DNA of 61,724 nt, filler included, from Dugesia japonica (taxonomy: Eukaryota), in the NCBI GenBank assembly GCA_001938525.1. It is 6 parts of 6 records of this genome, joined end to end, with 100 filler letters (N's around TTAATTAATTAA, not from the genome) between each part and the next. Parts side by side here need not be neighbours in the genome. Positions count along the whole stretch, not along the records: positions 49,720 to 61,724 come from MQRL01497011.1; 5 more parts are not named here. The stretch is one strand, 5' to 3'. The notes below the pieces were generated by a model. The model was not told the origin of the DNA. It saw only the letters and a program-made list of their open reading frames with translations, and did no database searches. Positions 51,263 through 53,358 of this stretch are shown here, in pieces. How positions within the stretch are numbered: position 1 is the first letter of the stretch; every line of letters starts with the position of its first letter. A program made the translations under genes and the position numbers.

Positions 51263-51478
51263 ATGGCCAATCCCTTAATTAAAATATTAAAACTAATTCG
51301 GGTTGAAAGACGCAAATCTCGGAGAAGGCAGTTGCTACTTCACATTCTATCGCACGGCGTGATCGAGCACCCGAATAAAGTAGATTTGGATGAGGAATGA
51401 CAACGTGAACTAGGATTGAAATCAGGCGAAATTGTTATAGGCGTAAATGTTGGAGTTTCCACCGATTCCTATTCGTAA
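51263..51478 (+). pseudogene. Orphan ORF cassette 0 (one internal TGA)
   Basis: MANPLIKILKLIRVERRKSRRRQLLLHILSHGVIEHPNKVDLDEE*QRELGLKSGEIVIGVNVGVSTDSYS; AATAAA at 51516. Confidence 0.4.
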
Positions 51479-51634
51479 TTTTACATGTGGTTTTAACTGA
51501 GTAACAATCTTGCGAAATAAATCGAATTGTTATTATGGCTTGTGTTTAGTTATATAAAATAAAATCTGCATGTCACATTTCTGTTTGCCATTCAAATGAA
51601 AACCTAGATAATTTCTAATCTAGGACCGCTGCAC

Positions 51635-52063
51635 ATGGAATACAAATGGGAAGTGAGCCGTGACACCCGTTTATGTTGAACCGTGTTCCGGCGGTATCAA
51701 AATCCCTATGATCGCAACGCCGGTGTATTACTAGATCGTGCCAATGTTCCTGTTGAACAACGCACAGCAGATCGGCAATGGGATGCAACTGAGAGGGCAG
51801 CCTATTATAGTTGGTGTGGCCCGAGGAGGGATAGAGTCGCCTTCGCACCGGCACCACTTTCTTTTGAGCAATCCACCGAGGTGCCACAAGTAGAACGAGT
51901 ATGGCATGATGGCCCATCTTTGATCGGTATCACCACGAATCGCTTACCCTCAACCTCACAACTGTCTTCCTTCGTGCAAAATTATTTATTGGAGGCCCGT
52001 AATGGTATGCCCAGTAATAATGATGAAAACTCTGGTGAAGAAGTCTCCGAGGTGTCGGTGTGA
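51635..52063 (+). pseudogene. Orphan ORF cassette 1 (one internal TGA)
   Basis: ATG 51635 MEYKWEVSRDTRLC*T is in frame with ORF 51683-52063; GC-rich relative to flanks; AATAAA at 52078. Confidence 0.55.
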
Positions 52064-52211
52064 CCTGTCTTATTAGAAATAAAGTTTTGGCTAGGAATTT
52101 GTTTTCTCTGTCTTTTATTGCTTGATTAGTTAAGACTCTATTCTACTTTTGCTTTTTGGACTATAAACGGTTTTAAATAGAATCCATAATTTTATTATAT
52201 TCTTGTTATAG

Positions 52212-52579
52212 TGCATTCATCATTAAACCGTCCATCGGCCCCCAATAAACAGATGAGAGAATCCAGCGAGGACGCCGAAATGTCCTGGGAGTTATATCGA
52301 CTAGCGAAACGTTGATTCGAAGCTGAGATAGCCACTGCCAACGCAAAAATGAAGCGTTATAAGAATAAATGTGTTAATGTAAGCAAAGAAATGGAAGCTG
52401 CACACGATCAAGAAAGAGTGTGGAAATCACAGGTAGAGTCGTTCGCTGAGATCATCCGGTCCAGCCATGACCGTGAAAATAAACTGGTCAAAGATATTTT
52501 ACATCTCAAGGAAAGATCATATCTCGAACCTATCATGGTTGATAAGGGCACCCAGACAAAACCCACCCCTCGTGTCTAA
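52212..52579 (+). pseudogene. Orphan ORF cassette 2, coiled-coil-like (one internal TGA)
   Basis: Open from 52214 HSSLNRPSAPNKQMRESSEDAEMSWELYRLAKR*FEAEIATANAK into ORF 52349; AATAAA at 52595. Confidence 0.5.
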
Positions 52580-52711
52580 ACCTTCTGTTCTGCAAATAAA
52601 AAACTTTTTATGTAGTGGTCTTGGTTTTCTCTTAGTATCATTGAAATTTTGATTAATGCAATCACAATAATTTTTATTATGTTTTCCTGTTGATAATGTT
52701 TAATTATTTAG

Positions 52712-53094
52712 TGCCACGAATTGTATTCCCAACAAGTTTGCGAAGGTGTCACCGGATNATGCGTCGATTATTGTTAGAACGCCATTTAAAGCGTAAGACC
52801 GAACAGGCCCTTCTAAGACATCTCACCCAGAAGAACCGATTAATAAAGAAATGAGATTCAATAGTTAAAAAACAGAGTGATTTGGCTGCCCAAACCATGG
52901 CTCTTGAAGTACAAAACAAACAAATATTACTACGAAAGATAGATTTCTTAAAGCAATACATAACCGACCTGTCCAGCCAAATGGGAAACCCTGTGTGGGC
53001 GCAGTGGGATGACAATGACGATATAGCCGCGTTCGACTTTTGGGAGACTGACCTGAATCAGTGGTTAGATCCTGGTGTATTGGAAGACATATAA
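52712..53094 (+). pseudogene. Orphan ORF cassette 3, basic/coiled-coil with acidic-aromatic tail (one internal TGA)
   Basis: Open from 52714 PRIVFPTSLRRCHRXMRRLLLERHLKRK...KK*DSIVKKQSD into ORF 52882; tail WDDNDDIAAFDFWETDLNQWLD. Confidence 0.5.
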
Positions 53095-53358
53095 GCTGTG
53101 ATGCTAATAGATATTTTGATAACCTTCGTCTAATTTTGTATCTATGTCTATAAGGGAACTTAATGAACCCAAATTAAAGGTGTACGAGTGTGAACCTCCC
53201 GTAAAGGTTGAAGGTCAACCGCTCTGCACTGAATATCCAACTGAGGGGCGTTGGATTCAAATTTTTGAAAGGGTTTCCTGATAGCTGTTTTTGTCCCAGC
53301 CATCCTTTTCTTACCATTCAACTCAGGTGAAACCCCAACAATATTATTTTTATAACAA

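What the first reader, a model, noticed from the sequence alone, without database searches (positions are those of the whole stretch)
51263..53281. Serial orphan ORF cassettes with same-phase splice acceptors and private poly(A) signals: a possible adenovirus-style alternatively spliced transcription unit in a Polinton-like element
Seen: a GC-richer island holds five short co-oriented ORFs separated by AT-rich spacers. Three are immediately preceded by acceptor-like sequences (TTTCTAATCTAG|GA at 51623, TTCTTGTTATAG|TG at 52211, TTAATTATTTAG|TG at 52711). In all three the open frame begins exactly 2 nt after the AG. Cassettes 0, 1 and 2 are followed by AATAAA (51516, 52078, 52595) plus GU/U-rich tracts. 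Known: adenovirus transcription units splice a common leader to alternative acceptors and poly(A) sites. Inference: a shared phase-1 leader exon could be spliced to alternative terminal exons, and a leader ending in A would create ATG on cassettes 2 and 3. The products (coiled-coil, basic, acidic-aromatic tail) could be uncharacterised host-modulating proteins. Linkage to the Polinton genes at 53.4-56.9 kb rests on adjacency only, and three matching phases can arise by chance about 1 time in 9.
Basis: partly seen in the sequence, partly recalled or inferred. Interest (0 to 1): 0.7.

Follow-up and report, generated by a model that had tools for sequence, protein, structure and literature searches.

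The report
Transposon micro-genes with split start codons
A repeated mobile element, likely in a flatworm genome, carries a row of five small unknown genes, the first three with their own stop-of-transcript signal; one of them (and likely a second) codes protein right from a conserved splice-like site with no start codon, so splicing likely supplies the missing first letter, though no spliced RNA was seen and the element likely is not the neighbouring Polinton.

Summary
The motifs are real and at the stated coordinates. The island is a multi-copy element whose cassette order is kept in sibling copies. At cassette 2 the AG|TG is unchanged in most sibling contigs. Between the AG and the first ATG, 7 of 8 listed differences are synonymous, so this gene codes from the acceptor and lacks a start codon; cassette 3 probably does too. 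Cassettes 0, 1 and 4 have their own ATG: a 46%-identical homologue of cassette 1 starts at the same Met. So the rule of one leader for all three acceptors does not hold at cassette 1. No spliced read was found: the four RNA reads crossing the cassette 2 AG keep intron-side letters, possibly from the opposite strand. Each spacer holds TTA|GT 75-83 nt before the AG, so short local introns splitting A|TG are my best reading (0.45); a shared leader remains possible (0.25). The island ends sharply at ...CAACA (53340; GC 0.42 to 0.18), an LTR-type end 18 nt before a Polinton-like ORF, so it is likely an insertion, not Polinton cargo. Protein functions are unknown.

The parts
50442..51172 (+). decayed upstream ORF(s) of unknown function, same element
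   Evidence: one sibling contig bridges 50845-51502; no Pfam, representative or Atlas hit
51263..51478 (+). cassette 0: ATG-started, 71 aa, basic cluster, H[VI]x6EH motif, one in-frame stop at 51398
51516..51521 (+). AATAAA after cassette 0
51549..51623 (+). candidate 75-nt intron (TTA|GTTATA...CTAG), would lie in the 5' UTR of cassette 1; untested
51635..52063 (+). cassette 1: starts at its own ATG, one in-frame stop at 51677
   Evidence: P0004 46% identical over 76 aa from the same Met; sibling alignments resume at 51632 and 51635
52078..52083 (+). AATAAA after cassette 1
52129..52211 (+). candidate 83-nt intron (TTA|GTTAAG...TATAG); acceptor conserved in sibling copies, donor untested
52212..52579 (+). 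cassette 2: coding from the AG on, no ATG at its head; coiled coil and C-terminal KGTQT (LC8-type motif, label recalled); one in-frame stop at 52313
   Evidence: 7 of 8 changes between AG and first ATG synonymous
52595..52600 (+). AATAAA after cassette 2
52635..52711 (+). candidate 77-nt intron (TTA|GTATCA...TTTAG)
   Evidence: five sibling alignments resume at 52690-52707
52712..53094 (+). cassette 3: basic helix, long coiled coil, acidic-aromatic tail; one in-frame stop at 52852
   Evidence: AlphaFold2 single sequence, helices 17-45 and 49-90 at pLDDT about 90, tail low
53144..53281 (+). cassette 4: ATG-started, 45 aa, open
   Evidence: RNA reads of a relative show AT-rich sequence then an in-frame ATG
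53333..53340 (.). right terminus CCCCAACA (TGTTGGGG on the minus strand), LTR/Ginger-type TG...CA end
   Evidence: GC change point at 53339, 0.42 to 0.18
44955..44977 (.). possible left terminus (ATATT|TGTT, matching the 5 nt after 53340), separated from the island by an inserted TIR element; unproven
   Evidence: this 9-mer occurs 9 times in the window

Best explanation
The island is a conserved row of small protein-coding genes in a multi-copy mobile element, likely an LTR-type element inserted beside Polinton genes, in which cassette 2 and likely cassette 3 lack a start codon and likely receive its A from a short upstream exon across a 75-85-nt intron. Shown: motifs, multi-copy status, conserved order, conserved AG|TG and coding constraint from the AG at cassette 2, own ATGs at cassettes 0, 1 and 4, and the sharp TG...CA-type end. 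Inferred: each gene is transcribed from a local start and ends at its own AATAAA; the donor is the TTA|GT in each spacer; host splicing makes A|TG, so translation of these two genes depends on splicing. Inferred further: if the element is an LTR retroelement, introns and internal poly(A) signals would survive copying only if the genes lie antisense to the packaged RNA, which would run leftward from 53340. The products are predicted to be small regulators (coiled coil with a dynein-light-chain-type motif; basic helix, zipper and acidic tail), by motif only.
For: (table complete, 25% share): no change listed at 52206-52218 in X1 (41 contigs laid) or X4 (33 laid), while 52199, 52202 and 52205 vary, two of them towards T; 7 of 8 listed changes between AG and first ATG are synonymous in this frame (1 and 0 of 8 in the others; binomial P 3e-4 to 2e-3); upstream of the AG 1 of 9. 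The internal ATG is altered in one deep X1 contig. An expressed relative keeps the first codons after AG|TG with synonymous differences (X9 loose end, read by eye). joints resume 5' of the AG for cassettes 2 (2 of 2) and 3 (5 of 5) but at the ATG for cassette 1 (2 of 2). TTAGT is the only 5-mer shared by all three spacers within a 9-nt band; an AGT-containing 5-mer does so in 0.4% of 3,000 shuffles. The implied introns fit the planarian 45-85-nt peak (PMC13594981, passage). One diverged sibling has TTA|GTGAGA upstream of the same AG. Split start codons are known from errantivirus env (10.1101/2023.08.03.551782, passage). Terminus and GC3 contrast.
Against: No GT-AG joint in six runs. All four RNA reads crossing the cassette 2 AG (3 in X9, 1 inferred from depth in X8) keep intron-side letters; only 4-6 such letters are visible, and they lie in the minority orientation. 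Any 5-mer is shared by the three spacers in 26% of shuffles, so TTAGT is post hoc. The candidate donors are mediocre, lie only 33-51 nt after AATAAA (little room for a promoter), and the one at 52129 had no sibling coverage (depth 0). The sibling's GTGAGA gives a 32-nt intron, below the planarian peak. The 8 changes come from related copies and are not independent. The left end, target duplication and LTR identity are unproven, and no gag/pol is linked. The host assignment rests on earlier AI notes.
Confidence: 0.45

Rival explanations
1. One reading: one shared leader exon ending in A is spliced to alternative acceptors, each followed by its own poly(A) site; cassette 1 would then use its own ATG behind the leader.
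For: Same phase at three AGs, a poly(A) signal after each of cassettes 0-2, cassette 2 headless. A strong A|GTAAAT donor exists at 50767 and A|GTAATT at 49771. Retroelements commonly use one major donor (own knowledge; passage for env).
Against: No junction read. Cassette 1 conservation starts at its ATG, not its AG. Cassette 4 RNA is ATG-started with AT-rich upstream sequence. Planarian splicing is proposed to be intron-defined with short introns.
Confidence: 0.25
2. The cassettes are phase-1 exons of one gene: for example a donor inside cassette 1 (G|GTATGC at 52005) joins it in frame to cassette 2, with the AATAAA sites acting as alternative intronic poly(A) sites.
For: Phase-1 donors at 52005 and 52014; one sibling's alignment stops at 51989 and resumes at 52206.
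Against: GC-rich coding composition runs to each stop; no good phase-1 donor at the end of cassettes 0 or 2; no longer fused homologue among representatives.
Confidence: 0.08
3. No splicing: cassettes 2 and 3 start at GTG (the G of the AG plus TG), preceded by A.
For: Explains AG and phase at once; the four crossing RNA reads are unspliced.
Against: The upstream context is T-rich YAG in window and siblings, unlike the A/C-rich context of the ATG-started neighbours; two conserved non-AUG starts in tandem would be unusual (own knowledge).
Confidence: 0.08
4. Host spliced-leader trans-splicing resolves an operon.
For: AATAAA-to-AG distances of 107, 133 and 116 nt match flatworm intercistronic distances near 100 nt (PMC12582326, PMC8629364, passages); planarians trans-splice (PMC10899757).
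Against: Reported leaders of parasitic flatworms end in ATG (for planarians recalled). That AUG would be out of frame at all three AGs, stopping after 10, 4 and 21 codons, and cannot explain the coding constraint before cassette 2's internal ATG. No leader-like tail in the loose ends shown.
Confidence: 0.07
5. The motifs are chance features of AT-rich spacers in dead DNA.
For: Four of five ORFs are broken in this copy; RNA is sparse and comes from relatives under 95% alike.
Against: Synonymous bias, conserved AG|TG, conserved order and a distant homologue.
Confidence: 0.05

Closest known systems
Drosophila errantivirus env, springer subclade (10.1101/2023.08.03.551782; passages read)
   Same: Splicing completes the start codon of a retroelement gene.
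   Different: There AU|G on one env gene from a donor upstream of gag, mapped by experiment; here A|TG on small orphan genes with private poly(A) signals, not shown in RNA.
Burro/GYPSM1 giant Ty3/gypsy elements of planarians (PMC6431247, section 7 read)
   Same: Multi-copy planarian elements with long LTRs and accessory ORFs.
   Different: No gag/pol linked here; the section describes no spliced micro-gene array; membership untested.
Antisense accessory ORFs of Retand LTR elements and HTLV-1 HBZ (PMC11963269, passages)
   Same: Extra regulatory-looking ORFs that may run opposite to the genomic RNA; cassette 3 has a basic-zipper-like build.
   Different: Retand ORFs lie between pol and the 3' LTR and encode TRP28; orientation here is inferred only.
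Adenovirus major late transcription unit (recalled)
   Same: Serial acceptors with several poly(A) sites.
   Different: No common leader found; adenovirus late ORFs carry their own ATG; three of five cassettes here do too, two seem not to.
Polinton/adintovirus accessory 'Oncoid' genes (PMC8502044, passages)
   Same: Small motif-bearing ORFs near pPolB.
   Different: No paired CXXC or LxCxE seen by eye; that paper has no occurrence of 'splic' or 'polyadenyl'; the island appears to be a separate insertion.

Membership tests
Polinton/Maverick | pPolB, integrase, ATPase, protease or capsid genes within the unit | tested here: not met
   No Pfam hit above cut-off for island ORFs. The pPolB label for 55.4-56.9 kb rests on recalled motifs; Pfam gave no hit there either.
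Polinton/Maverick | island physically inside the Polinton in other copies | tested here: inconclusive
   No listed contig or joint bridges 53281 to 53359, but only 8 of 493 pieces and 15 of 18 joints were shown; sharp terminus at 53340 and GC3 contrast argue against.
LTR retroelement (solo LTR or LTR part) | TG...CA termini | tested here: inconclusive
   Right end CAACA at the GC change point; left end only a candidate at 44955.
LTR retroelement (solo LTR or LTR part) | 4-6-nt target duplication | tested here: inconclusive
   ATATT flanks both 53340 and the candidate 44955; the 9-mer occurs 9 times in the window.
LTR retroelement (solo LTR or LTR part) | paired LTRs around gag/pol, PBS and PPT | not testable with these tools
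   No genome held; the right flank shows neither PBS nor PPT by eye, as for a solo LTR.
Adenovirus-type alternatively spliced unit | one leader joined to several acceptors in RNA | tested here: inconclusive
   No joint in six runs; coverage at the acceptors was 0-4 reads.
Adenovirus-type alternatively spliced unit | several poly(A) signals in series | tested here: met
   DNA motifs only; no 3' ends mapped.
SL-resolved operon | about 100-nt gap between poly(A) signal and acceptor | tested here: met
   107, 133, 116 nt.
SL-resolved operon | downstream ORF starts at the leader's AUG or at its own ATG | tested here: not met
   Leader AUG out of frame; cassette 2 coding before its ATG.

The most novel reading that the evidence does not exclude
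An LTR-type element carries, antisense to its packaged RNA, a five-gene unit in which one non-coding leader ending in A is spliced to alternative acceptors, each with its own poly(A) site, so that splice choice both creates the start codon and selects which small regulator is made: adenovirus-style expression inside a retroelement terminal repeat.
Probability: 0.15. Interest if true: 0.78.

Novelty: new variant of a known kind. Interest (0 to 1): 0.5.

Why it matters
Invertebrate mobile elements are rarely credited with a multi-gene, intron-bearing accessory programme. If splicing must build the start codon, expression is tied to the host spliceosome and to the correct strand, a simple on-switch. 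It would also give five uncharacterised small proteins, conserved across copies and in one case to 46% identity, as candidates for how planarian transposons act on their host. It is easy to test with existing long-read or PIWI-knockdown RNA data. Related arrays were noted twice before in this genome by this scan, so the layout may be a family trait.

Tried and rejected
Whole-genome search: none held. Run search: no RNA holder listed; not used as evidence. Runs X7 (0 reads) and X11 (1 read) gave no test. Word-based protein searches: P0002 no candidate, P0003 0 of 27 candidates, alignment A1 only P0004 among 142. Representative search over the upstream ORF and cassettes 0-2: 1 hit. Viral contigs: nothing in four scans. 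Metagenome hit L001 is the antisense strand of a bacterial gene with no other similarity; rejected. Atlas: no usable hit. Cassette 1 model pLDDT 43 and Foldseek 0 hits at E 0.001 or better: uninformative. Pfam: only sub-threshold coiled-coil hits. Phage tblastn of the 53359 ORF: none. Spacer-to-spacer alignments: best shuffle P 0.036 of 15 pairs, not significant. A same-phase acceptor at 53154 for cassette 4 was considered and dropped: the open frame there is one base off and starts at ATG. Left end at 49025 rejected because it lies inside another TIR element. Papers PMC3994195 and PMC5797480 not held.

Full report
Observation. Five co-oriented ORFs of GC 0.41-0.50 are separated by spacers of GC 0.24-0.29. 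AATAAA follows cassettes 0, 1 and 2 by 37, 14 and 15 nt; shuffled spacers place it in the first 50 nt in 6.3%, 1.8% and 3.3% of 20,000 trials. Cassettes 0-3 each carry one in-frame TGA. Each of the three acceptor cassettes also has an in-frame ATG 11, 41 or 47 nt after the AG, so the question is whether coding starts at the AG or at that ATG.

Host and copy number. No genome is held. Earlier notes on the same genome call it a planarian (AI notes, not checked by me). Run X1, whose contigs cover all 30 bins including spacers and so look like DNA, laid 473 contigs. Its pieces and joints link the upstream ORF to cassette 0, 0 to 1, 1 to 2, 2 to 3 and 3 to 4, with spacers often too diverged to align. 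The array is therefore a multi-copy element with conserved gene order.

Where coding starts. Cassette 1: the only protein hit among 1.84 billion representatives, P0004 (E 1.6e-13, unnamed single ENA record), aligns from the same Met at 46% over 76 aa. Both sibling joints entering cassette 1 resume at 51632 and 51635, the ATG, not at the AG at 51623. Cassette 4: nine X8 RNA reads of a relative show AT-rich sequence and then an in-frame ATG within three codons of the window's ATG at 53144. Cassette 2: in the narrow lay (41 and 33 contigs laid; difference table complete at 25% share) nothing is listed at 52206-52218, so AG|TG is kept in most copies, while positions just upstream vary. Of 8 listed changes between the AG and the first ATG, 7 are synonymous in this frame, against 1 and 0 in the other frames and 1 of 9 upstream of the AG (P 3e-4 to 2e-3; four of the eight are listed mainly through RNA reads of one relative, and the copies are related, so this overstates independence). 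The internal ATG is altered in one deep contig. Cassette 2 is thus coding from the acceptor and has no ATG at its head. Cassette 3: five of five joints resume at 52690-52707, upstream of the AG; I have no letter-level test there.

RNA. Raw reads came only from relatives under 95% alike: 62 in X8, 1 in X11, 0 in X7, and 6 and 3 in X8 and X9 on the narrow stretch. No GT-AG joint appeared. Three X9 reads and, judging by depth, one X8 read cross the cassette 2 AG with intron-side letters (4-6 visible). All four have the first mate on +, whereas most X8 depth over cassettes 2 and 4 has it on minus (7.32 against 3.19; 5.7 against 1.83). If the library is stranded, they come from the opposite strand and say nothing about splicing; strandedness is not known. 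Only 13 of 42 loose ends were shown. This counts against my reading as far as it goes.

Which donor. TTAGT is the only 5-mer shared by all three spacers in a 9-nt band, giving A|GT donors and introns of 75, 83 and 77 nt. Some 5-mer is so shared in 26% of 3,000 shuffles, one containing AGT in 0.4%. Planarian introns peak at 45-85 nt and are proposed to be intron-defined (PMC13594981, passages). A diverged sibling shows TTA|GTGAGA before the same AG, but at only 32 nt. The donor at 52129 had no sibling coverage, and all three lie only 33-51 nt after AATAAA. A distant A|GTAAAT at 50767 could serve a shared leader. I put the local model at 0.45 and the shared leader at 0.25. Trans-splicing fits the spacing, but a leader ending in ATG would be out of frame at all three AGs.

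Which element. The best GC change point in 53000-53700 is 53339 (0.42 to 0.18), at CCCCAACA|ATATT, which reads TGTTGGGG on the minus strand: a TG...CA-type terminus (typical of LTR and Ginger elements, recalled), 18 nt before the ATG of the Polinton-like ORF at 53359. Island GC3 is 0.37-0.45, against 0.09-0.23 next door. A matching ATATT|TGTT lies at 44955, just left of an inserted TIR element, but that 9-mer occurs 9 times in the window. Earlier notes from this genome describe a 4.4-kb probable solo LTR with five or six micro-genes (e1-9268182), whose motif partly recurs in cassette 0, and a four-gene element with two A|TG starts (e1-9389716); these prompted the boundary test and are leads, not support. 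If this is an LTR, introns and internal poly(A) signals would persist only antisense to the packaged RNA (inference), which would also explain the unspliced opposite-strand reads.

Proteins. No family was found. Cassette 2 is a coiled coil ending in KGTQT. Cassette 3 folds as a basic helix and long helix with a low-confidence acidic-aromatic tail (net charge +13 in the first half, -10 in the last 35 residues). Regulatory roles are guesses from motifs.

Literature. Passages read: PMC6431247 (plus section 7 whole), PMC10899757, PMC12582326, PMC8629364, PMC8502044, PMC8532177, PMC13594981, PMC4040987, 10.64898/2025.12.11.693146, 10.1101/2023.08.03.551782, PMC13524379, PMC11963269. Search listings showed no paper describing such an array. 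The library is incomplete: two key planarian papers were not held, and no supplements were read, so Burro LTR annotations there may bear on novelty.

Verdict. New variant of a known kind; interest 0.5.

Noticed in passing
51398, 51677, 52313, 52852: Cassettes 0-3 each hold exactly one in-frame stop, always TGA, with no frameshift. At 52313 no alternative letter reached 25% in either contig set, so many copies seem to share the stop, while 3 of 3 X8 RNA reads covering it are open. Shared decay or read-through; unexplained.
   Followed up: partly
   Followed up: partly
44978 to about 49720: Element starting AGTAGATAGTAG with 153-nt inverted arms at 99% (45060-45212, 49467-49619); likely a non-autonomous Maverick-like TIR element, right end hidden in an N gap.
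   Followed up: partly
48990-49260: Small ORF with tidy 41- and 44-nt GT-AG introns (49042-49082, 49142-49185) inside that TIR element.
   Followed up: no
52541-52558: KGTQT at the end of cassette 2, a dynein-light-chain-type motif (label recalled), in the bin with the highest sibling depth.
   Followed up: no
4120-8389, 43000-44040, 53359-56900: Several decayed Polinton-like gene remnants: an A32-like ATPase at 7913-8389 (Pfam PF04665, E 9e-5, just under cut-off) and pPolB-like pieces with a YADFE-type motif (recalled).
   Followed up: partly
57595-58430: Gag-like zinc knuckles (PF00098 above cut-off) followed by a protease-like remnant: a separate decayed Ty3/gypsy piece.
   Followed up: no
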